Positions 2,653 to 41,888 of a stretch of DNA of 64,000 nucleotides are shown here, piece after piece. The stretch's first letter is position 1; each line of letters starts with the position of its first letter. The position numbers were made by a program, and so were the translations under genes. Below the pieces are notes generated by a model. It saw only the letters and a program-made list of their open reading frames with translations, did no database searches and was not told the DNA's origin. This DNA is from Microbotryum violaceum (Eukaryota): NCBI GenBank assembly GCA_001244265.2, contig CDLV01000005.1:992001-1056000 (forward strand). Direction: 5' to 3'.

Positions 2653-5600
2653 CGCACCCATCGCTTCAAGCATGGACATCCTACCACACACACCACCACC
2701 TCTACAACCTCGCTCAGCATCGCCAGTCGGAACAGAGAAGGGAAAACGCCTGACAAGACCAAGCGCAAGAAGAGCACGACCGTGAGGAGGAGGAAGAAGA
2801 AGGTGACCAGCAGCAACAAGGACACGTGCGAGAATGGGGCCACGACGTCGGTCGGAACGGAGGAGGAGGCGAAGACGAAGAATAAGAAGAGGAAATTATG
2901 GACCAAGCGAGTACGGAAAAGGGAGCCATCGTTGTCCCCGGATAGCGAGCTGTTCGACAAGACGTTCGGCTTCAACTTCGGCATTTTCCGCTCTGCAACG
3001 AAGAGGCGTCCGAAACGTCAGCCGGGCCCTCCCCTATCACCATCAGTCCAGAGGTCAACGCGTCGTCGGAAGGAGCATTCGGAGAAATCCATTGCCGGCC
3101 TCCACAAATCATCGTCCGAGCCGTGGACTGACATTGCCGATGGCGCAACGGCGTGGCCTCTAGACACCGAGACCGGCGGCTTCGAGCACAACTTCAAGCC
3201 TAACAGCGCGCCTGACTTTGAGCCCGACTACGACTTCGGTCGCGACTTCGGCGGTGGATACTCATCTGGACCGGAGCATTCGCCATTCCACCCAGACGGT
3301 GCTTCTCAAGACCAAGCGCCCTCTTCCCTTAAGCGATCGCAGATCGAGAGGAACGCCAAGAAGCAGCGCAATCGTCGCCGGAATGCGAGGGCCGAAGCTA
3401 AGACTATGGCGTCAAAACGACCTGACCTTCTCCAGGCATACCTATTGATGAAGAAAAAGGCCAAAGAAGTGCTTCGACAGAGCGGGTTTGTCCCTTCCCC
3501 GGACGACGAGGAGTGGTGCGACGCATGTCATGAACGCCGAGTCACCAGAAAGGTCCGGGTTGTCGACCTGTTCTTTGCAGGTAAGTGCTTATGTTGCACG
3601 TATTTTGTCAATCACCCTTACGCTATCGTCTTGGACTGATTTGATATCCCCCAACCATGAGCAGGCGTGCGAGAACTACGATACTGCCCACGCTATTCCG
3701 AGATCCAAACCCTGGCAGCTCACGGTCTTCTCCCGACGTCGTCATCTTCAATCCGAAAAAGAGAAGGCATCACCGCATTCCTCTTTCGCACGATCGAATA
3801 TCTCGACGCCTACTGGGGGGTAGATCCTTTTGGTATCTATGGCATGTCCGAAGCGCTCATTCTCTTTTGGTCCTCTGAATCATCCTCGGAGGATCCTTTT
3901 AACAAGGTGGGCTCTTGGACAGGGACAGGCCGGAAACATTCACTGTTTTTTACAGAAAATATTGGAAGCTTCCCAGGGTCCAACCGTGCGTCAGCATCTT
4001 CAAGCCGCAATGGATGAATATCGATTTATGCAACAGCTGCAGGCAACTTTGACCGCCGAATTTATCGGCCTCTCCCCGCGCGAGCGTCTGGCCGACGTTT
4101 GTCCGGCATGTTTTGGGCCTCGGATCGATGAAGCCGGCAAGAGCGAGAATGACCTCGATGTCATCATTGCTGTCGACGGCAATTTTCAGCATCGACGATT
4201 CGCGCGGGCAACTGCTGATCCTCTCAAGTCACGTCCAGCGTTATTCCTGTCACCAGACAAGATTCGAAACGAGCAAGCTTTGATCGACGGATCGACTGAA
4301 GCGGGCGAGCAGGTACCTTGGTGCTGCTGGTGTCGGGTCACCCGAACCCAATAATGCGTTGACCCGACTGTCTGTGATTGCTAAACGGGCTATTCTATCA
4401 TATAGGACGAATGCACAGCGAACTGGAAGGCCGCAGATGGTGGTGTGACCTCCGCTTCGTCAAATGTAGTAGCCGACACAGGCCTCGTTGCTGCAGTTTG
4501 CCGTCATGATCATTGCCTGCGACTTTGCAACCTTCATCAATCAGGTGAAAAGCATGTGTGGACCGGCCATCTGTGACTCCAGGCAAGGACACTACTAACC
4601 GAATCTGGTCTGCCGCAGGTTAGTATATCCCGTGTCGCTGTTGAAATGGATTCTCGAAGAAGTTGAAGTCGGAGAAACGGATTGTACTACGGGGCCTGCG
4701 CGTACCAGTGACGTTACAAACGTCGGATCCAGCTCGGGATCGGGCTCCCACCAAAGTTCGAGTCAGGATCGAAGTCGCGTTGGAGTCGCGTATGATATCG
4801 CCTGCAACTTATCGTCGCACTTACGCCGTATGAGTTTGTTCGTGACACTCAGCCTGACGTTGGCTTAGTTCGTAGCTGAGCAACTCATCTCTCCCCGGTA
4901 TGCGCAGCGCAATCTTCTGGCAGATCACTTACCGCGTCTGAAATTTGCTCTCTCGTCGATGCATGCCTATGCGCACAAGTGGTCCTGCCAGATTGACTTT
5001 GATCCGCGCTTTCTACCCAATTTTGGTTTGACTGATGGCGAGGGAACCGAGCGCTTGTGGTCGCAGCTTCGAGGCATGATACCCATGAACCGATCATCGA
5101 GTTCCTCCCATCGGCTGGAGAACATCAATCGTCGAGCATCTGCTTATAACAAGCAGCATCTGGCCGAACTTGGTTCGCTTAAGCGTCCAGTCTTTCATGC
5201 ACTACCTTACCATGTCGCTGATCTTTGGCATATCGATCATGCCCAGTGACCAAACTTAATTCTCGACTCAAAAACGCAATCAAGCTTAAGGCCGAAGCCG
5301 ACAGAGTCATTGCTGAGGTCGTTAATCGCTCCGAATGGACGGTCGCTATTCTCCTTGAACAATGGCACGCGCAACGTGCAGCGTCCAAGCAGATCCCTCT
5401 GAAAGAGCAGCGCAAAGAGGTAGCCGAGATGCGCAACGTCATGTTCAAGCTTGAGCTGGTTAACAGAGACATCGCAGCATGCCGGTGGGTCTGAGCTATC
5501 GTCGTCGTTTGGGAGTGAGACACGAACCGGTAACCTAGCTTCGGTATTCATTTTTCGATTGACACAGGGAAGACCTAGCCTGCGTGAACACCATAGATAC

Positions 5601-32158: not shown

Positions 32159-33142
32159 TCATGCGATCAGAAGGGTCGAACTATGAGCATAAAAAAAGAG
32201 CGAGAGCATCAGTTTCAATGTTGCCACGGACTGCAGCCTCAAATTCATAAGAAACTCATCTTGATAGTCGCCATAGTAGCCCGAAGCAGGTCCAGGAACG
32301 GGCAAAGTGCGGTACAACCCAAATTTGATCGAGGAGTTGGTCCCCGTGTCACCGGTGGCAGCGTAAGTCATGAGCCGCTTGCCGTGGTCCAAATCGGTCG
32401 CAACGTAACTGAGCGAACCGTTCGTTCCCGCCATGACCCAAAGGCGATGCTCGATGACGCGGCCTTGGAAACTACCGAGCGGGATGGTGACCTCTTGCTT
32501 GCGCACGTTGTCCATTAAGACGTACGAGTTGCCCTTGACGTCGCCGGTGCTGTCGCGACGGAGCAGTTGGAACAGATGGAAAAAGTTGGTCCCGACGATT
32601 GTCGAAGGAGCGTTCGTGAGATACGATCTCCAGATGTACAAGTTGCGGGACTCGGCGGGGACGGGAGGAAGCGAGAAGATCTCGATACCCTGGCGTGCCG
32701 ACGCTTGGCGCTTCTCGAGTGTTTGACCGGTCACGTCCTCCTCAAAGGTGTCCAAATCGTCGCCAAGAGAGTCGTCGTCGATCTCCCATCTGGGATCGGA
32801 AAGGTCGTAGGAGTGCGCGGCAGAAGAGCCATTCTCGGATCGTGTGGCAAGATTCCCAGTGGCGTTAAGGCCCATCTGCCAGCAGTCGCTGATGGCGATG
32901 TGACGACCGCACCCTCCGTAAATCAGAACCCCTGAGGATTGGTACCCGAGCTTATCGCTGATCTTGCCCGAAGTCATGCGAGTACCGGTCGACATAATCA
33001 CGACGTCCTTCTTTTGGATGTCATGGGCCGGCAAGGCGGACCCACAGGTGGCGAGGGTGCAAACGGCGACGACGGCGCCGATAAGGAGCGCTCTGATCGC
33101 GACAGGGGTCGCTCGAGCGGTGGAAGGAGAGTGGGCAATCAT
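32159..33142 (-). CDS. Putative secreted protein (polysaccharide-lyase-like beta-sandwich)
   Basis: Hydrophobic signal (ALLIGAVVAVCTLATCGSA), Kex2-like LEKR, FFHLFQLL...IKFGLYR. Confidence 0.5.
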   Translation of the reverse strand: MIAHSPSTARATPVAIRALLIGAVVAVCTLATCGSALPAHDIQKKDVVIMSTGTRMTSGKISDKLGYQSSGVLIYGGCGRHIAISDCWQMGLNATGNLATRSENGSSAAHSYDLSDPRWEIDDDSLGDDLDTFEEDVTGQTLEKRQASARQGIEIFSLPPVPAESRNLYIWRSYLTNAPSTIVGTNFFHLFQLLRRDSTGDVKGNSYVLMDNVRKQEVTIPLGSFQGRVIEHRLWVMAGTNGSLSYVATDLDHGKRLMTYAATGDTGTNSSIKFGLYRTLPVPGPASGYYGDYQDEFLMNLRLQSVATLKLMLSLFFYAHSSTLLIA

Positions 33143-33775
33143 GGGCGACGAATGGGTGGACGACAGTAAGCCGGAAAGGACAGGGTGGGGAAAGAGAGGG
33201 AGAGAAGTAAAGACTTGGAAGGCACAAAGACAAAGTTGTCCTGCATATTTAGGGAGAGGTCGAGATGTTGAGATAGCCTCGAATCTCGCGCGAGCGAGCG
33301 AGCCGCCATTGACTGCTGCGAACCACTGCCGACGCTGCAACACTAGTCCAAGCCGGGCGGACGGGGACTTGGAGTGCCCGGTCTCGCCGAGCAAAAGGTC
33401 GAGTGTTAATGCGCGGGGGCTCATGTTGTAGCGGTGGGTAATGAAAACGCCCGGACCGCAGTGAGCTTCAGTCCACCAGGAACACGCACGGGCCCTCTCG
33501 TCAAATGATCGGTGTCGTTCGGCGCTTACCGGAAACGGCAGAATCCGAGTTCGTTCGGGTAAAGCGTGCGCGAGCAGACGCGCCCGGCGCGCACGGGCCT
33601 GTCGCTTTCGTCATTTCATTGCTCCAAATTCCCTCGCGTGCGCTCGGCTGCTGGCGAAGGTCTCGAATATTGAGGAGGCGATACAGACGGTGTGGCATGA
33701 TGACATAATCTGCGGGGTTATAAACTTGAAGTAGGTAGTCGTCTTGACGAATGAAGAGTTGGACTCGGTGAGTTG

Positions 33776-33837
33776 AGCGCTGCACGACAATGCAGTTGTT
33801 TCGTTGTCAAAGGACAAACTCATCAGGCGCTTGCGCT
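33776..33837 (-). ncRNA. Type I hammerhead ribozyme (3' pLTR copy)
   Basis: Minus strand: AGCGCaaGCGC-CUGAUGA-GUUUGUC cuuu GACAAC-GAAA-CAA cugca UUG-UC^GUGCaGCGCU. All core nucleotides and stems I-III are present. Confidence 0.92.
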
Positions 33838-35053
33838 TCTAAGGCCTTTCACCAGAAAGAATTCGCTATTAGCTGCTAAATTCTATTAGTCAGGAGCTAA
33901 TGAGAGAATAGATTCTAATTCGAATTTCAGACTTAGAAGGAATTTCTCAGAGGCCAGCCATGACTAATAAGTGGAGGTCAGGTGGTCTGTGCGAGCTCAA
34001 GAGCTGGACAGCTGAGTAAGTACCCCTATTCCAGGGGTGCTCTGACCTCCAGCAGATTAATAGACATTACTAGGTCTAGTAGTGGAAGTTGTAATACCTC
34101 CACTTGGAAAAACAAATGAGTTTTGAATATTAAAATATTTTTGACTCAGTAACATCAGGTCGTGTTGATGCAAGTGGAGTTGATGTAATCCCATACATCT
34201 GAAAACCAAAAGCCACCGAAAATTGAAGAAAATTCTGGTGTATAACGCTGTCCAAGTCAAAAGACTTGGATGTACATGGTACACGAGTTATAATCAATCT
34301 AGAGTCGAAAAATTCTCAAATTTGAAAAAGAATTCTTCGAGCGTCTAGTACAACTGATATGAAACCGTGCTAAGGTTCTCAGTGTATCTAAGATGTTACA
34401 GCTCCTTCTGCCACCAGGAGAAGGAGCTATCTGTTATGCTACTACAGAGCCATAATGGACTCCAGATAATTTCAATCATAACTTCAAGTACCCTCTCACG
34501 GAAGATTCTCAATGATTCTCCGAGTAGAACAAGAGAGTACAAGACGTTATGATCTCAGTGTATCTGTTTAACGTAGTTCCACTTATTCACGGCATGAATA
34601 AGGTTTTAAGTTTTCTGGTGAATCTTTTCAAAGTCAGATCATCTGCTCCTCCCTGCTGGGGTCCCATTGCCGGGGTGCAAAGTAAGTTACACTAGATCTT
34701 TCAATCTAATGTAACATGTTATGCACCCAAGTCCAAGGATGTAGCCAGTAGTCAAAGGAGATCATCCGATCTCCAGCGTATTTGTGCCAAAGAGCGGGAC
34801 GAAAAGCTGAAAGAGGCTCTACGCTGGGAATCAGAAGACTATGACAATGTCAAGATGCAATACATCCTGTTGCGGAGATTGTGTATGTTAAGTAACATGT
34901 AGAGTCTCAAAGATGTTTAAGCAACATCCAGCAACAGATCAACGTTAGACCTAATCTTCTCAGAATGAGAGACCCAGTCTATTGTAAGAGCTCTTCCTTT
35001 CAGAGAGAATAGACTGCTTGAGGTATAACTCGCGATTAGAATTAGGGTCTAAT
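33838..35053. ncRNA. Candidate long structured RNA (3' region of PLE)
   Basis: AT-richer tract with no long ORF, packed with 7-11 bp perfect inverted repeats, nested stems and one long-range 11-bp pairing. Confidence 0.6.
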
Positions 35054-37805
35054 TCAAACGGCAGTTGATGATAATGTATTGGCCGTGGAGAGGACATTCT
35101 TGTTGAATCTATTCACGATCTCTCCCAAGTTACGAGTTCGGGAGCGTGCGTTGATAATCCTTCGGGACGAAGTCCCAGTGAGTTTGGTCCGAAGATCAGG
35201 ATTCCAATCTTCAACAGTCTTTGTCAGGATGAGACCTGCATTGACCTGGTTCCAAACTGGATTATAATCGCTGTGAAAGATCAAGGGTGTTTCCCCCGTG
35301 TTCTCAATTTGCTTCCTTTCAAGAGCAACTGGACGAACATCAGAGTACTGCACAACCTTGAATGCCTTCCTTAGCCATCGGGTAGGATATCCCCGAGCTC
35401 TCAACCTCAAATAGAAGCGAGTCATCTGATTGATGTACTCGTCTCTTGAGGAGGAGAGTCGAATGTATCTGATAAGTTCTCCTTTCACAAAGGCAGACTT
35501 CACTGATTCGGGGTGTTCCGATGACCACGGTATATATTGATATGAGTTGAAGTCCTTTTGGTACACTCTTGTAGAGAGAGACCATCGGGAACAGTCCTTC
35601 GGGTCGGGGTTCTTCGATATAAAGGCATCGAGGAAGGGTAAACCGTTGGAACTGACTTCAGCATCGAAGACTAAGGACGGGTGAAGTTGAGCAAGTGCAG
35701 ATATACATTTGTCAACATTCGACCGCGGGCCCTTTACTATAGCTATTACGTCATCGATGTATCGCCCATAGAATATGAGGTTAGGAGTTTCCATGAGACG
35801 AGCCTCTCTTTCAAGTGCTCCAACGAAAAGGTTGGCATAGGTAGGTGCAAGGGCAGTGCCCATTGCCGTCCCTGAGACTTGATGAAAGAGTTTCCCTTGG
35901 AATCCTAGGTAGCTGTTGTTCAACACAAACGAGACGAGCTCATAAATGAGGTCGCCGGCTGTTTGCTCCCTGAGTGTTTCGGTATTGAAAAACTCAGACG
36001 AGGGAGCAGAGCCGAAACCGAAGTTCTCTGAGCCCGAGTCAAGGAAATCCTCGAACATTGGGGCGAGGATCGGCGGCAATCTTTGAGAGAAAGGCAGATG
36101 CTCTTGTGTATAGAAGTGTGTCCCTAGCCATCGCATGCACCTTGCTCCCTCGTCTGAAGGGAGGTTGGTGTACATGCTTTGGATGTCAGCTGTGATGATC
36201 CACAGCTCCTCATTAACCTCTGGGAGTTCAAGGTCTGAAAGTCTTCGGAGAAGATCCTTCGAGTCTTGAATAATCCAGGGGAAGAGTTGGAGCATAGGCT
36301 GCAGTAGCCAATCAGCATATTTGGAGACATGTGATGTAACCCATGAGTGCGAGGGCACTATGGGCCTGCCAGCCAGCTTGACTTTGTGCATCTTTGGAAG
36401 CATATGAAATTCAGGAAGTTGAATTTGATCTTCGTTGAGTTGATGCACGAACTTCTCAGCGCTAAAAGGAGTGTATTGGTACAGTGACGCAAAGGAAAAG
36501 GCTTTGGAGATAAGTCTTTTCCTGCGGTACATCAAGGTTTTGATGATTGCGCGCAGCCGTACCATTTTCAGTTCAAGATACGTTGAGGAGTTCAAGATAC
36601 GTTGAGGCAACGTACCAGTCTTTTGGAAGGACTGTAAGACCTAGGTTTTTATCAGCAGCTTTAACAAGAACGTTATTGCTGTTCATAAATCCTTCCAACG
36701 ACGGTAAAGTAGCCCCGGCGAGGTTGGGTCGCCAACTTGTGGAATCGACACCATCCAAGGCCTGACGCAAGAGCAAGAAGCCCCGGTCAAGCCCTTTTTC
36801 GACAGTCTCATCTGCTTTGGGCCAGATGTAAGGTATGGTAGATTTGACATGAAGTCCTGGGACATATCTGTCTCTTCCCGTCTTCACTGGAGCATTGAGA
36901 AATCGGCTTCTTCGGCGAACTGTAGTTCTCAGTTCTTTAAAGGACTCCAGAGGAGCTACGACATTGATCTTGGGTCTGATAATGAACTTGAGATTGAGAG
37001 AAAGGAGCCTTTCGATTGCCGAAGGGATCTCAACCTTGAACGGGTTGAGAAGCTTTGGGCGTTTCATCTTCGTTTCAAGCCACAGCTCGTTTGAATGTAT
37101 GAATACGAAAAGATCACGTTGTTCTTTTGACAGAGCAAGAGTAGCAACGGGCCATGTAGTACCATCTCTAACTAGGAAGTGGAGTGGTAGATCTAAATCA
37201 ATGGCAAGAAGAGGAGAGGGATTCACATTCGTGAAGTCAACTCCAGTGGAGTTGAACCTCATGGATTGTGAGGGGTCATTGATAAATTCTCCCACAGATG
37301 TAATATGATTCGACCGAACAGGAAGTATCAATTGCCATCTATCCTTCCTCTTTCCTTTCCTCGAGATACTACGAGCATTTAGAATGGAATCACTAGATAC
37401 AGATTCCCTTAAGTGGTCTTCTGCTTCTTTGCGTTCCCTGCCTTTCCTCCTTGCGTCATTGCGCGTTTGCGACTGTTGACGTTCCCATTCTTCGAAAGAG
37501 TTTGGGTCTGAGGTTGAGGGCGAGCTGGGAGAGTCGAAGGACGCTTGGCAGAGTTGCCTTGTTTCTTCGAAGAATCTCCCTTCGCGGTCGAGGTTGAACC
37601 TCGTTGCGAAGTGCTCGTCTGAGTGCTCGTGGTCGGAGTGTTGCTCTTCTTCGATGGTTGTTTCGAATTGGAGCGACCTTGAGATTGTTGGATGCGCGGA
37701 ATGTTGTACCCTTTGAGCTGAAATAGCAAAAGGGAACACCGATTCAGTTCGATCATAGTCATCGAGCATGGTCGGACATTCAGACCGAGAGAGGGGACGC
37801 ACCAT
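35054..37805 (-). CDS. Penelope-like reverse transcriptase, frameshifted by a 19-bp tandem duplication at 36570-36607
   Basis: LLSLNLKF, KAADKNLG, LPKMHK..GRPIV, ITADIQSMYTNLP, QVSGTAMGTALAPTYANLF, YGRYIDDV, LPFLD, YQK..YIPWSSEHP..KSAFVKGELIRY..LRARGYP. Ends without an endonuclease domain. Confidence 0.93.
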
Positions 37806-38623
37806 GCCTTCAACTTATGAAAGTTTCTTGGACAGTTTGTTGATGTCATCCTTGTAGTTGTTGACTACTTTCTCGGTGACGGTAGAAGTATCTACTGAGG
37901 AGACGTCTAAGTCCATCCTCGCGGCGTCAAGGTTCTGCGAAGCTTGAGCCTTCTCGTCTTTAGCCATCTGTTTGCAAAGCTATCGTTACCGGCAGCATTT
38001 GAGAAATCCTTCCACGCAGCATTACACATACGAGAAATGATTCCCTGAGTGACATCGTCGAGAGATTCACCAGGAGTGACAGAGAGTGCGATCCTGCGAA
38101 GCTGAGGCTCCCAGGTCTCAAGTCTCATCTTCACAGCTAGGTGACTGAGGTCAATACCTAGCTTAGCTTGTTCTAAAGCTTCCTGTTTCTTCTCAATCAA
38201 CGTATCAAGTAGGTCACGACGACACTTCAAGATAGTTTGATCGACGATAGTCTGAGCGGCGCGTTGCAATTCCAAGCCACCTTTGTCGAAAGGGGTGCCC
38301 CCATCAATGGTAAAGGGTTTAATCGATACATTGATGTTGGTAGGGAATTGATCGGCTTCCCTCTGCTTTTGAAGCTTTGGGATCGCGCTGGTGCAAGACT
38401 CCTTCAAGTCATATGCACCAGTCCAGAGCTTGGTGGCATCTGGAATCAGACTCTCGGTCAGAACCTTGTAATAAGATCCTGAACCGATGCCTCCTTGTTT
38501 CAAAGCGTTGTCCAGGTTAGGAGTGGCTACGTTCAGAATACTCTGGACAGCAGCTACTCCATTGCCCTTCTGAGACGCTCGAGACTTGGAAACAGACATG
38601 TTGGCCTTCTCCAAGGGCAACAT
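37409..38623 (-). pseudogene. PLE ORF1 (helical/coiled-coil protein with basic tail), disrupted
   Basis: ORF 37907-38797 (likely ATG 38623); apparent frameshift near 37970; TAA at 37815-37817; putative intron 37718-37802; K/Q/S-rich tail to stop 37409. Confidence 0.6.
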
Positions 38624-39109
38624 GGGCAAGGGACCAGATGGGGGATTCAAACCAGGAAAGGGGGAGGGGGGGGGGGGGTGGAGTGGAAGGAATACGATGA
38701 ACACAAGAAGTGTGTGATAGGACTGGTGCCAGCAGTCCTCCCGGGGCTTGGCAGCTCGGCCAGAGAAGAGGGTGCTCACTATTGCAGATCTGGGCACTGT
38801 ACACGGTCAGGGCCTCAAATCTGTCCGGGAAAGGAAGTCTGTAGGTATGACAGTGGTGGGAAGGACTCGTGTTGATTTCAGTACGATGCACCTCGATGTA
38901 GCGGCTTGGGTTGAGTCGATGCGAAGGCTGTGGCACGGCTGCGAAGCTCGAGGCTGCGAAGGGGTAGGAGCGTCTCTAGTTACGTGACGTCGATAGATGA
39001 CCTATTGTGAGATAGTGGGTCGCTAAAGGTCAATCGACTGTAACAGAGCGACTAGGCGAGATGTGATATCGAGTGCGTGGTGGAGAAGAGAGAAAAACAG
39101 CTAGGCCAA

Positions 39110-39648
<539 letters not shown>

Positions 39649-40161
39649 TCATTCGTCAAGACGACTACCTACTTCAAGTTTCTAACCCTGTGGCCTCTAA
39701 ATTCGCCTTCATCGGCGCGCACAGGCACACGATAGAAGCCGTCTCATGCAATTGATCTTGTGCCTCGCGACCCCTCGCGGCCGTCGGCCGTCGGGCCTTT
39801 CGTAATCGAGAATAGCCGACAGAAAGCGGAGGTTCGCGAGGTCTGTGCAGAAGTTGCAACGGTTTGTGCCGCAAATCTGGCCGTCTGGATGACACGCGGG
39901 CTTTTTGTTGTAGTAATGAGTGCGACGGAGGATTATGGGGATCGGATCCGCAAGTTGTCGGGGTCGGATAGCTTCGTGCCTTTTATTTTTTCGACAATTC
40001 GCACAGTGGTTGGTAATGGCGCGATCCCACTGATCTCGATCGAGATTTTGATGAGCCATTACTCCTTGCTCTCACTACTTCTCGGAAGGAGATCACGAGA
40101 ACACGTCTGGATTCGGTTGCAGCGCTGATGTAGTTTGTGCAGATGAGAAAATTGTGCAAGC

Positions 40162-41888
40162 TTATTGTGTAGACCACAGAGGGCCGGGATATAGTGTTGC
40201 GATGGGAAGGACATAACGCCACGGGCCTTGCCAGTGTTGCGGTCGGGGTATACCTCGAGCGATGCCCATCTCGAGCCTGGTTCATGAAAATGAGTGCGGT
40301 CAGCGCCTAGACTTATAGAGAAACAATCAAGGCAACGCACTGACCAACAACTCGAAAGAAGCACTCCCGGCCCCGCGATCCAGAACAGCGTCCACACCGC
40401 TCCCAGGGTTTTTCCCACCTTTCGCTTCGTCATCGAAGTGAAAGCCCCTTCCACAACGACACCCACACCCTGTGATAAGAAGTAAATGACTGAGCCCCAC
40501 CGTGTTGTCCATGGGAGATGAGCGGGGTTAGAGATGTGGAAGGTGTGTAGCGCCGACCACAAGGCGTGTTCGTGCAGCCAAGCACTGATGGCGAATACAG
40601 CCATGACGGCGGCGGCTTGAGCGATGGTCTTCCCTAAAATAGGTGAGACGATAGCCATCGTTGGTTCGTATCCGAGGGCCTTGAAGGGCCGTGCGAAGAA
40701 ATAGTGCCACTGCTCCGACCAGAATTTAGCCACGCTCGTCGGGAGACGAATCTGGCACAGTCGGGGATACTGGCGCGGGTCGAAAGGTGGCGGTCGCAGG
40801 CGTACGGGTAAGATGGTGCGGAGTAGTCCAGTCAGCGTGAACAACATTAACGAGACGCATGTGAAGCCGAGGGTCAATCCAGCGAGGGCGGCCACGCCGA
40901 GCGAGAGCGCAGCACACGAAAAGGCCAATGATTCGACGCGGGCAACCGACAAGGAAGGGAAGTGACGTGCAATCGCGCTCGCTCGGGTCGAATGGGGCGT
41001 CAAGATGATGTACGAACATGTCACGAGGGTACAGTGGGACCAGACCAGGTCGAGTAGCACCCGTCGGAGGTACTTGGCGTGACTCATTGGGTGAGGTCGA
41101 GTCGAGCATCGAGGTGGGGGTCCGAACGCCCATCCTATCCCCCGCATCGACACGAGGAGGTGGAGTGTCCAGGACAGAATCTGAACGGGCGAGTCATTCT
41201 CTGCGGCCTTGCGACGTAATGCCTCGAGTTGTTCCTTGCGCTGGCGAGTCGGATCCACATTGCTAGGCTTGCCGTGGCCATGTTTGGAGCTCGTCTCGGC
41301 GAGAGAGTGTTGACGGGTATATCCTCGTTCGTCAAATCCAACCCATGTATACGGTGACAGGTCTTGTACAAAGGCAAACTCGAGGGCTGCATATGGGATA
41401 TTGAAAGTGATTAGGCCTGCACAACCTTCGGCTGCTCGATGGAATTCAAGATCCGCCAGACACTCACTCTTCATGATGGCGTAGGCCCCCATGACGCCGA
41501 CGACTCCGAAGTTGACGCCGACCGAGGCCTCCCTCGGCTCAAAGCCATACTCGAAGCTCAAGCGCGCGGCGTAGTAGAGCCCCAAGGGCAGTAACAGCAG
41601 CCTAGCCGGGGTTGAGATGGCTCTTGGGAAAATGGGGTGCAGCAGCAAGGCTTGGAGGGAGACAGGCACGAGGAAGGTGAGGAGGCCGAATGGTAGAAAT
41701 CGGGGAAGGGACGAAGGCGACGATGAGTGGGGCCGAGTGAGTAGATGGTGGGCGTTTGCGGTGCCAGGCAGCTCCAACAGCGACTGTAGCCAGCTCTTGG
41801 CGAGCGTCGTATCGAGCATGATGGAGCTCGACCCAGTCGTGCTGTCGACGGCTGTCGGGGGGCTGAATTTGGTCCTGTCTACAATCAT
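40162..41888 (-). CDS. Membrane-bound O-acyltransferase (MBOAT_2 / wax synthase-like)
   Basis: Multiple TM segments; SMRGIGWAFG, TSVAKFWSEQWHYFF, VFAISAWLHE (catalytic His), FLSQGVGVVVE. Confidence 0.88.

What the first reader, a model, noticed from the sequence alone, without database searches (positions are those of the whole stretch)
33838..35053. ~1.2-kb hairpin-dense non-coding RNA between a telomerase-related RT and its hammerhead/telomeric end
Seen: an AT-richer tract with no long ORF that begins right after the RT stop codon and is unusually self-complementary. Perfect stems include 33972-81/34042-51 (10 bp), 34098-106/34171-79 (9), 34251-58/34263-70 (8), 34400-09/34419-28 (10), 34582-89/34595-602 (8), 34673-79/34722-28 (7), 34773-80/34820-27 (8) and 34975-83/35008-16 (9). 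An 11-bp long-range pair 33848-58/34612-22 closes a ~770-nt domain, and many stems are nested as multi-way junctions. A 13-mer TCTCAGTGTATCT occurs twice (34377, 34553). Known: PLE RTs are the closest relatives of TERT, and EN-less PLEs prime at telomeric DNA. Inference: this could be an RT-binding scaffold that presents the TAACCC end, i.e. a telomerase-RNA-like module in cis. I do not know of a described structured RNA of this size in fungal PLEs. Wobble pairs are mixed between strands, so the functional strand is not settled.
Basis: partly seen in the sequence, partly recalled or inferred. Interest (0 to 1): 0.85.

Follow-up and report, generated by a model that had tools for sequence, protein, structure and literature searches.

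The report
Hairpin-packed 3' tail of fungal retroelement
The 1.2-kb stretch is the non-coding 3' end of a telomerase-related "Penelope-like" jumping gene in a smut-type fungus, and it is far more self-complementary than chance allows, but what the folded RNA does, and whether it acts like a telomerase RNA, remains unproven.

Summary
All nine listed stems and the 13-mer repeat are exact. The tract folds about 10 standard deviations better than dinucleotide shuffles on both strands. It has 9 perfect local stems of 8 bp or more, against 1.9 expected.

It is the 3' UTR, on the minus strand, of an endonuclease-less Penelope-like element (Coprina-like, Microbotryum-type host). It lies between the RT stop and a hand-recognised type-I hammerhead, a 71-nt tail and TAACCC. 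No decayed ORF or known RNA family lies in it. Contigs from four organisms carry it joined to the RT, and 5'-truncated copies end inside it. The three relatives with a clear hammerhead far from the stop also have 1.1-1.7 kb spacers, and downstream tracts are strongly structured in 12 of 28 loci.

Selection on the structure is not shown. Natural variants and a relative's alignment give only weak or ambiguous signals. The telomerase-RNA-like reading has no direct support: the hammerhead would cut the UTR away from TAACCC, and no telomerase-RNA family matches. My best reading is a cis-acting folded 3' domain. Interest is moderate.

The parts
33715..33721 (-). Single telomere-like unit TAACCC(C) at the 3' boundary of the element (sense strand)
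   Evidence: GGGTTA at 33715. Other copies switch to different flanks exactly here, and one copy reads GGGTTAGGG (loose ends at 33715 and 33724).
33715..33785 (-). 71-nt 'tail', the downstream copy of the terminal direct repeat (pseudo-LTR). It runs from the predicted hammerhead cut to TAACCC.
   Evidence: family D1: 100% identical to 39500-39570. Cut site read from the sequence.
33777..33836 (-). Type-I hammerhead motif: helix I GCGCAAGCGC / GUGCAGCGC, core CUGAUGA, helix II, GAAA, helix III ACAA/UUGU, and GUC with the cut after C at 33786
   Evidence: the core pattern has only 2 hits in 64 kb, at the two element ends, against 0.48 expected; 18 canonical pairs can be drawn, but the fold is -12.1 against an alternative MFE of -19.7 kcal/mol; the natural variant at 33786 gives GUA, which fits the NUH cleavage rule as I recall it. 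Rfam does not call it.
33838..35053 (-). Hairpin-dense 3' UTR (the finding)
   Evidence: structure potential; no protein similarity; joined to RT and tail in other copies; 5'-truncation junctions at 34082, 34175 and 34744.
35035..35048 (-). Telomere-like motif ACCCTAATTCTAAT, 5 nt after the RT stop. It is conserved in the closest relatives.
   Evidence: the window, L001 and L002 share ACCCTAATyCTAAT; the L004 family has (CCCTAA)3 at the stop; the only blastn similarity to L002 is the first 33 nt of the UTR, at 79%.
35054..36640 (-). RT ORF, C-terminal frame (RT core to the natural C-terminus)
   Evidence: RVT_1 at E 2e-6, 28.1 bits, just under the 29.6 cut-off; 93-97% identity to three Microbotryum silenes-dioicae proteins; relatives align up to residue 518-525 of 528.
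36573..37814 (-). RT ORF, N-terminal frame, with the DKN motif (KAADKNLGL)
   Evidence: residues 250-409 align to P0004 residues 1-168 at 48% identity.
36569..36606 (-). Two tandem 19-nt units that shift the RT reading frame. This copy is defective.
37907..38806 (-). Upstream ORF (299 aa), no Pfam match
39156..39391 (.). Long hairpin (107-nt arms, 98% complementary) in the 5' region
   Evidence: pair I2, z -8.0.
39500..39570 (-). Upstream copy of the 71-nt tail plus TAACCC (upstream pseudo-LTR)
   Evidence: family D1.
39567..39688 (+). Inverted, 5'-truncated copy (hammerhead plus tail plus TAACCC) abutting the upstream pseudo-LTR
   Evidence: pair I1: 98% complementary to 33715-33836; hammerhead core at 39577-39605 (+).

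Best explanation
The tract is the 3' untranslated region, read on the minus strand, of an endonuclease-less Penelope-like retroelement of the Coprina type in a Microbotryum-like basidiomycete. This copy is defective. Element layout on the sense strand: 71-nt leader with TAACCC, 5' region, ORF1, RT, stop, ACCCTAAT motif, 1.2-kb UTR, hammerhead, 71-nt tail, TAACCC.

The UTR is transcribed with the RT. It folds into a dense, mostly local array of hairpins.

Most likely it works in cis as a compact folded 3' domain of the element's RNA. After hammerhead processing, that RNA would end just downstream of the domain without a poly(A) tail. The domain could then (a) keep the ribozyme and the 3' end in a defined fold, (b) protect the end from degradation, and (c) serve as the platform on which the element's own RT assembles. 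This would resemble the structured 3' UTRs of R2 and stringent LINEs.

Shown here: element identity, structure potential far above chance, physical membership in the retrotransposed unit, and the same long spacer in close relatives.

Inferred, not shown: transcription, the actual fold, hammerhead cleavage, and any protein binding or function.
For: Structure potential:
- z about -10 on the whole tract and -11.5 on 1000 nt of the sense strand.
- 9 perfect stems of 8 bp or more, against 1.9 expected.
- In 200-nt windows the UTR has mean z -4.1, against about 0 to +0.4 in host flanks and -1.7 in the element's ORFs.

Identity:
- RT homologues are 93-97% identical in Microbotryum silenes-dioicae. 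More distant PLE-type proteins include some with GIY-YIG.
- The DKN motif is present.
- There is no EN and no protein remnant in the tract.

Membership in the mobile unit:
- Contigs of four organisms bridge tail, UTR and RT.
- 5'-truncated copies end inside the UTR.
- The 3' end has about 3 times the depth of the body in run X1.

Relatives:
- The distance from stop to hammerhead is 1151 nt in L002, 1248 nt in L019 and 1707 nt in L036.
- Mean z per 300 nt, downstream tract against RT, is -2.85 against -0.25 (L002), -3.4 against -1.65 (L019) and -4.4 against -3.0 (L001).
- The downstream tract is more negative than the RT in 18 of 28 loci, and at or below -2.5 in 12 of 28.

Variants:
- Natural haplotypes of two other organisms (31 and 25 substitutions) fold at -404.4 and -411.6 on the sense strand.
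- None of 41 random sets of the same substitution types goes below -390.2.
Against: - Selection on the structure is not demonstrated. Of 35 natural substitutions, 19 hit paired sites of the sense-strand MFE, and 10 of these keep the pair while 9 break it. On the plus strand the figures are 21 sites, 8 kept and 13 broken.
- Variants are not significantly depleted in stems.
- The result is also what neutral drift from a structured ancestor would give.
- Both strands fold equally well, as expected for DNA-level palindromes.
- In the one alignable relative family (5 sequences), covariation is weak: 6 double changes against 3.2 expected, matched or exceeded by 36 of 500 shuffles.
- 10 of 28 related loci show no extra structure downstream of the RT, including L036, which has a clear long spacer.
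- The element's ORFs are also somewhat over-structured, so part of the signal may be a general property of the element.
Confidence: 0.55

Rival explanations
1. The hairpins are a mutational by-product. The element's RT, or repair at insertion, makes snap-back or template-switch errors, and the unconstrained UTR accumulates the resulting small inverted duplications. The hairpins have no function.
For: - Both strands have the same z.
- Many stems are perfect Watson-Crick.
- The element demonstrably makes large inverted duplications: 107-nt arms at 39156-39391, and an inverted 122-nt copy at 39567-39688.
- Covariation and variant tests are inconclusive.
- 10 of 28 relatives lack the feature.
Against: - The same long, over-structured tract recurs in relatives whose UTR sequences cannot be aligned.
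- Haplotypes about 2.5% diverged, found in three other organisms, keep or improve the sense-strand stability.
- The structure is spread over all four 300-nt windows rather than being a few recent palindromes.
Confidence: 0.22
2. One reading: a telomerase-RNA-like scaffold in cis that binds the TERT-related RT and presents TAACCC as a pairing or template site for G-rich chromosome ends.
For: - The PLE RT is the sister of TERT, and EN-less PLEs use reverse-complement telomeric repeats next to a hammerhead (passages of PMC8557442 and PMC6431247).
- The domain is bracketed by two telomere-like motifs: ACCCTAAT after the stop, and TAACCC after the tail.
- Other copies end at TAACCC, and one has GGGTTAGGG.
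Against: - The hammerhead cut separates the UTR from the tail and TAACCC.
- The terminal repeat starts at that cut, which suggests cleavage occurs.
- There is only one telomeric unit.
- No telomerase-RNA family is hit at the gathering score or at E up to 10.
- No pseudoknot, template boundary or three-way junction was identified, though I did not search for these specifically.
Confidence: 0.07
3. The tract is a hairpin-RNA source. Long near-perfect hairpins in the transcript are diced into small RNAs, so the tract serves host silencing or self-limitation of the element.
For: Dense stems of 8-13 bp and larger composite hairpins. The element's other long hairpins have z of -7 to -8.
Against: Most stems are shorter than a typical Dicer substrate. 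No small-RNA data were available. The property recurs in relatives, which is odd for a feature harmful to the element.
Confidence: 0.06
4. The tract is a separate, retrozyme-like non-coding module (structured RNA, hammerhead and tail) that joined the RT unit at the telomere-like motif after the stop. It may propagate as processed or circular RNA.
For: - GC drops at the stop, from 0.48 to 0.41.
- A telomere-like motif sits exactly at the junction.
- The 3' part is several-fold more abundant than the RT part in runs X1 and X11.
- Retrozyme circular RNAs are highly self-paired and derive from PLE pseudo-LTRs (passages of PMC7761336; abstract and passages of bioRxiv 10.64898/2026.07.22.740005).
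Against: - No contig ends or switches sequence at the stop or motif near 35045.
- The truncation points lie at 34082, 34175 and 34744, as expected for ordinary 5' truncation.
- Only one sense hammerhead flanks the tract.
- There is no tandem array.
Confidence: 0.06

Closest known systems
EN-deficient Penelope-like elements (Coprina in fungi, Athena/Terminons in rotifers)
   Same: - TERT-related RT without GIY-YIG.
- A hammerhead motif near the 3' end followed by reverse-complement telomeric repeats.
- Short terminal direct repeats.
- An inverted 5'-truncated copy next to the upstream repeat.
- 5'-truncated copies.
Sources: passages of PMC8557442, PMC6431247 and PMC4209133; here.
   Different: - This copy sits inside a gene-bearing region, at least 33 kb from either end of the window, not at a visible telomere.
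- It has one TAACCC unit only.
- There are 71 nt between the hammerhead cut and the repeat, rather than the repeat lying 'immediately downstream'.
- The 1.2-kb hyper-structured UTR was not mentioned in any text I could read.
Structured 3' UTRs of non-LTR retrotransposons that their RT recognises (R2; stringent-type LINEs)
   Same: A non-coding folded RNA at the 3' end of the template, placed where reverse transcription starts. The stem-loop recognition idea appears in the abstract listing of PMC5135761; the R2 case is recalled, not read here.
   Different: As I recall them, those elements are much shorter (tens to about 250 nt) and RT binding has been shown. Here the tract is 1.2 kb, binding is untested, and a ribozyme follows it.
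Retrozymes and viroid-like hammerhead RNAs
   Same: Non-coding, highly self-paired RNA next to type-I hammerheads, with an evolutionary link to PLE terminal repeats (PMC7761336 passages; bioRxiv 10.64898/2026.07.22.740005 abstract and passages).
   Different: Retrozymes are flanked by two sense hammerheads, occur in tandem and make small circles. Here one sense hammerhead follows an RT-linked UTR, and there is no tandem array.
Telomerase RNA
   Same: It would be a long structured RNA working with a TERT-family RT and a C-rich telomere-complementary motif.
   Different: There is no match to any Rfam telomerase-RNA family. The motif lies beyond a ribozyme cut. No defining TER substructures were shown.

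Membership tests
Penelope-like element, EN-minus (Coprina-like) | PLE-type RT with the upstream DKN/DKG motif | tested here: met
   KAADKNLGL lies in the N-terminal frame. RVT_1 scores E 2e-6, at 28.1 bits just below the 29.6 cut-off. There are 120 homologues, many carrying precomputed PF00078, PF28514 and PF26215.
Penelope-like element, EN-minus (Coprina-like) | No GIY-YIG endonuclease | tested here: met
   No Pfam EN hit. Relatives align to residue 518-525 of 528, so the C-terminus is complete. tblastn of 120 PLE proteins, including GIY-YIG-bearing ones, finds nothing inside the UTR.
Penelope-like element, EN-minus (Coprina-like) | Placement of the RT inside the Coprina clade in a tree | not tested
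   No named Coprina reference sequences were on hand. The nearest named hits are fungal: Microbotryum, Rhodotorula, Armillaria, Mucor and Rhizopus.
Penelope-like element, EN-minus (Coprina-like) | Reverse-complement telomeric repeats at the 3' end, next to a hammerhead | tested here: met
   One TAACCC(C) lies 71 nt after the predicted cut. Another copy has GGGTTAGGG. Relative L002 has (CCCTAA)5 about 74 nt after its cut.
Penelope-like element, EN-minus (Coprina-like) | Location at or near a chromosome end | tested here: not met
   The element lies at 33.7-39.7 kb of a 64-kb window with host-like high-GC ORF-bearing sequence on both sides. No telomeric array occurs in the window; only scattered single hexamers are found.
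Hammerhead ribozyme, type I | Conserved core (CUGANGA, GAAA, NUH cut site) and three helices in type-I order | tested here: met
   A hand-drawn fold has 18 canonical pairs. The core pattern is found only at the two element ends. Relatives show the same core with a different, complementary helix II.
Hammerhead ribozyme, type I | Match to a curated covariance model (Rfam) | tested here: not met
   No hammerhead family is reported at the gathering score or at E up to 10 on 7.2 kb and on 201 nt.
Hammerhead ribozyme, type I | Self-cleavage | not testable with these tools
   There is only an indirect hint: the 71-nt terminal repeat begins at the predicted cut, within 0-4 nt.
Telomerase RNA | Match to a telomerase-RNA family, or a template of about 1.5 repeats with a boundary element, pseudoknot and three-way junction | tested here: not met
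   No Rfam telomerase family is hit. There is a single 6-7 nt telomere-like unit. The substructures were not searched for individually.
Retrozyme (hammerhead circular-RNA retroelement) | Non-coding unit flanked by two same-strand hammerheads, usually in tandem | tested here: not met
   Only one sense-strand hammerhead is present, and the second lies on the opposite strand 5.7 kb away. No tandem repeat is found.

The most novel reading that the evidence does not exclude
Endonuclease-less Penelope-like elements carry a selected, 1-2 kb hyper-structured 3' RNA domain bracketed by telomere-like motifs: ACCCUAAU right after the RT stop, and UAACCC after the hammerhead tail. This domain is the RNP platform of their TERT-related RT. 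It would be a living analogue of how a retroelement RNA could have become a telomerase RNA. The hammerhead would define the RNA ends, and the 71-nt leader would be copied by a template jump or from a circular RNA.
Probability: 0.1. Interest if true: 0.85.

Novelty: new variant of a known kind. Interest (0 to 1): 0.5.

Why it matters
PLE reverse transcriptases are the closest relatives of telomerase RT. How they recognise their RNA, and how they start synthesis at chromosome ends without an endonuclease, is unknown. A large, unusually ordered RNA domain sits exactly at the 3' end of the template. It recurs in unalignable relatives and is bracketed by telomere-like motifs. That makes it a concrete candidate for the missing cis element. 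It is testable by probing, binding and deletion experiments. If the structure turns out to be a by-product of sloppy reverse transcription, that would itself say something about how these elements replicate.

Tried and rejected
- Rfam: no family at the gathering score in the whole window. In E-value mode on 33000-40200 and 33700-33900, the only hits were chance miRNA-like matches on the big hairpins.
- tRNA scan: none found.
Replaced by tblastn with 120 PLE proteins, which gave only noise plus the RT's own last 14 residues.
- Own-genome search: no genome is held.
- Other copies in the window: none.
- blastn of the UTR against 80 related metagenome loci: only the first 33 nt after the stop resemble L002, so no cross-family alignment or covariation test of this UTR was possible.
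- Tandem or periodic build of the UTR: a few short direct repeats are spaced 176-203 nt apart, but TRF finds nothing and autocorrelation shows no peak. Rejected.
- Expression: no RNA holder is listed among the sequencing runs. The one run guessed to be RNA (X17) is held as contigs and cannot show transcription.
- Per-site variant test and stem depletion: not significant.
- Earlier findings of this scan: nothing was returned.
- Papers: PMC1890498 (Gladyshev & Arkhipova 2007) is not held, and Arkhipova et al. 2017 was not found in the library. Supplements (for example the PLE consensus files of PMC8557442) are closed. A description of long Coprina 3' UTRs there cannot be excluded.

Full report
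**What is at the site.** The window carries one retroelement on the minus strand, at about 33715-39688.
- Its RT is read in two frames, 37814->36573 and 36640->35054.
- The second frame has a weak RVT_1 match: E 2e-6, 28.1 bits against a cut-off of 29.6.
- It has 120 homologues. The best three are 93-97% identical proteins of Microbotryum silenes-dioicae. Next come M. lychnidis-dioicae (51%), Rhodotorula toruloides (47%) and other fungi. More distant hits include proteins that also carry GIY-YIG.
- The first frame ends with the PLE-type DKN motif, and it aligns to the N-terminus of the M. lychnidis-dioicae protein.
- The two frames are separated by two tandem 19-nt units at 36569-36606 that shift the frame. 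This copy is therefore defective.
- A 299-aa ORF without a Pfam match lies upstream.
- No whole genome is held for the window.

**The element's ends.**
- A 71-nt direct repeat (33715-33785 = 39500-39570, 100% identical) and a 122-nt inverted copy (33715-33836 against 39567-39688, 98%) mark the ends.
- Read on the sense strand, 33836->33786 spells a type-I hammerhead. It has helix I GCGCAAGCGC/GUGCAGCGC with a small internal loop, then CUGAUGA, a 6-bp helix II, GAAA, a 4-bp helix III, and GUC. All 18 pairs are canonical.
- The core pattern occurs only twice in 64 kb, at the two element ends, against 0.48 hits expected.
- Rfam's hammerhead models do not report it at any threshold tried. The thermodynamic MFE prefers another fold, -19.7 against -12.1 kcal/mol. 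The call is therefore by motif only.
- Three things support it. First, relatives have the same core with different, complementary helix II sequences. Second, the natural variant at 33786 changes GUC to GUA, which fits the NUH rule as I recall it. Third, the 71-nt terminal repeat begins at the predicted cut, within 0-4 nt.
- The tail ends in one TAACCC(C). Other copies change flank exactly there, and one reads GGGTTAGGG.
- A short direct terminal repeat with an inverted 5'-truncated copy beside the upstream repeat is the layout described for PLEs (passages of PMC8557442). A hammerhead followed by reverse-complement telomeric repeats is the described mark of EN-less PLEs (passages of PMC8557442 and PMC6431247). 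Hammerheads in fungal PLEs are on record (passages of PMC4209133).

**The observation itself.**
- All nine stems and the repeated 13-mer are exact.
- The tract has no ORF longer than 75 aa, and GC is 0.41.
- Folding energy of the 1216 nt is -397.2 (plus) and -395.6 (minus) kcal/mol. Dinucleotide shuffles give -309 and -306 (sd about 9). That is z -10.1 on both strands, with 0 of 60 shuffles as good on either.
- The tool's own run on 1000 nt of the sense strand gives z -11.5, 0 of 20 shuffles as good, and a centroid close to the MFE.
- Perfect local stems of 8 bp or more number 9, against 1.86 (sd 1.29) in shuffles, with 0 of 300 shuffles reaching 9. Equal-sized RT and host segments are at chance.
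- The signal is spread out. All four 300-nt windows have z of -3.9 or lower.
- In 200-nt windows, host flanks average about +0.4 and 0.0, the element's ORFs -1.7 and the UTR -4.1 (means are my arithmetic).
- About two thirds of bases pair, mostly locally, with a median span of 29-35 nt.
It is not improbable by chance.

**What it is not.**
- No Rfam family matches.
- No tRNA is present.
- There is no protein remnant. tblastn of 120 PLE proteins, EN-bearing ones included, gives only noise inside the tract. Relatives align to the last residues of the RT ORF, so no C-terminal domain has decayed here.
- It is not a foreign insertion. Contigs from runs of four organisms bridge tail, UTR and RT without any joint.
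- Ordinary 5' truncations end inside it, at 34082, 34175 and 34744. In one run the 3' end has about three times the depth of the body.
- It is not a tandem array.

**Is the structure selected?** This is the weak point.
- Of 40 variant sites listed for 33600-36000, 35 fall in the UTR, 4 in the flank, tail or hammerhead, and 1 in the 947 nt of RT. The divergent pieces are the more abundant, probably older, 5'-truncated copies, so the rates are not comparable.
- Of the 35 UTR substitutions, 19 hit paired sites of the sense-strand MFE, with 10 keeping the pair and 9 breaking it. On the plus strand 21 hit paired sites, with 8 kept and 13 broken.
- There is one double change in a pair (34482/34546), which is about what chance gives.
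- Applied as haplotypes, the substitutions of two other organisms give sense-strand energies of -404.4 and -411.6, better than the window's -395.6.
- By contrast, 41 random sets of the same substitution types average -380.3 and never go below -390.2.
- This fits maintenance of the fold. It is also what two neutral descendants of a structured ancestor would show, so I do not count it as proof.
- The UTR cannot be aligned to any of the 80 related loci beyond its first 33 nt.
- In the one related family that can be aligned (5 sequences, 682 columns), covariation is weak. There are 6 double changes against 3.2 (sd 1.5), matched or exceeded by 36 of 500 shuffles. The covariation score is 0.084 against 0.075, matched or exceeded by 13 of 500.

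**Relatives.** A profile of the RT pulled 80 metagenome loci.
- The three loci with a clear hammerhead far from the stop also have long spacers between stop and hammerhead: L002 1151 nt, L019 1248 nt and L036 1707 nt. Two more distant loci (L042, L047) have about 220-250 nt.
- L002 repeats the whole layout: stop, ACCCTAATCCTAAT, UTR, hammerhead, about 74-nt tail, (CCCTAA)5.
- I scored 300-nt windows downstream of the stop against the RT region in 28 loci. Six were scored and 22 of 29 planned; seven were not reached before the time limit. Loci were chosen by hand from the 80 for having enough downstream sequence and for not being near-duplicates.
- The downstream tract is the more structured of the two in 18 of 28 loci, and has mean z of -2.5 or lower in 12 of 28. 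Examples are L001 -4.4, L002 -2.85 and L019 -3.4.
- It is near zero in others, and L036 and L035 go the other way.
- The 'hammerhead' hits of L025 and L027 look doubtful.
- So a long, over-structured 3' tract is common in this clade but not universal.

**How it most likely works.** I read the tract as a cis-acting folded 3' domain of the element's RNA.
- If the hammerhead cuts, the processed RNA ends about 50 nt after the domain, with a cyclic phosphate and no poly(A).
- A compact, nuclease-resistant, protein-binding fold at that end would make sense. It would parallel the structured 3' UTRs used by other target-primed retroelements.
- This is inference. No tool here can show transcription, cleavage, fold or binding.
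- The telomerase-RNA-like version is not excluded but has nothing specific in its favour. The cut would separate the domain from TAACCC, there is one repeat unit, and no telomerase-RNA model matches.
- One sequence-level point deserves follow-up. The terminal repeat runs exactly from the cut to TAACCC. That is what would arise if synthesis started at TAACCC near the 5' end of a processed RNA and then jumped to the 3' end of another, or if it ran round a circle.
- A second telomere-like motif directly after the RT stop is shared with the closest relatives.

**Novelty.** The element type, its hammerhead and its telomere-like end are known. In four literature searches and the passages read, I found no mention of a kilobase-scale, hyper-structured 3' UTR in PLEs. 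Two key papers and all supplements could not be read. I therefore rate it a new variant of a known kind, of moderate interest.

Noticed in passing
window 36569-36606 (minus strand): Two tandem 19-nt units (18 of 19 identical) shift the RT reading frame, so this element copy is defective. Relatives read straight through this region.
   Followed up: partly
window 33715-33785 and 39500-39570: The 71-nt terminal direct repeat runs exactly from the predicted hammerhead cut to TAACCC. This fits an RNA whose 5' end is made by the ribozyme, and a template jump or circular template during copying.
   Followed up: partly
window 35035-35048; L001, L002, L004, L010, L023, L044 just after their RT stops: A telomere-like motif sits within 0-80 nt after the RT stop in 11 of 34 sequences printed, including the closest relatives. 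It reads ACCCTAATyCTAAT in some and (CCCTAA)3 in others. Its role is unknown.
   Followed up: partly
window 39156-39391: A near-perfect hairpin with 107-nt arms (98% complementary, 22-nt loop) lies in the element's 5' region. This region is GC-richer (0.52-0.56) than the rest of the element.
   Followed up: no
window 35038-38837; RT regions of L001, L004, L035, L055, L061: The coding parts of the element and of several relatives also fold better than shuffles (mean z about -1.7 here, and -2.7 to -3.5 in these relatives), while host flanks are at about 0. This hints at element-wide ordered RNA structure.
   Followed up: partly
window 34175 and 34744 (contigs of runs X11 and X17): Two different 5'-truncation points are joined to nearly the same foreign sequence (...TATACGTATCATAGGTGGGG...). 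This suggests recurrent joining to one partner sequence or array.
   Followed up: no
window 33786: In two other organisms the hammerhead cut-site base is changed (sense C to A, so GUC becomes GUA). By the NUH rule as I recall it, this would still be cleavable.
   Followed up: no
window 38660-38680: A long G run (poly-C on the sense strand) lies between the upstream ORF and the 5' region. By my arithmetic from contig lengths, long contigs of two runs end near here. That stopped confirmation of the element's 5' boundary from other copies.
   Followed up: no
L050, third 300-nt window downstream of the RT stop (stop ends at 3633): One 300-nt window has z -21, presumably a large inverted repeat downstream of that relative's RT.
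   Followed up: no
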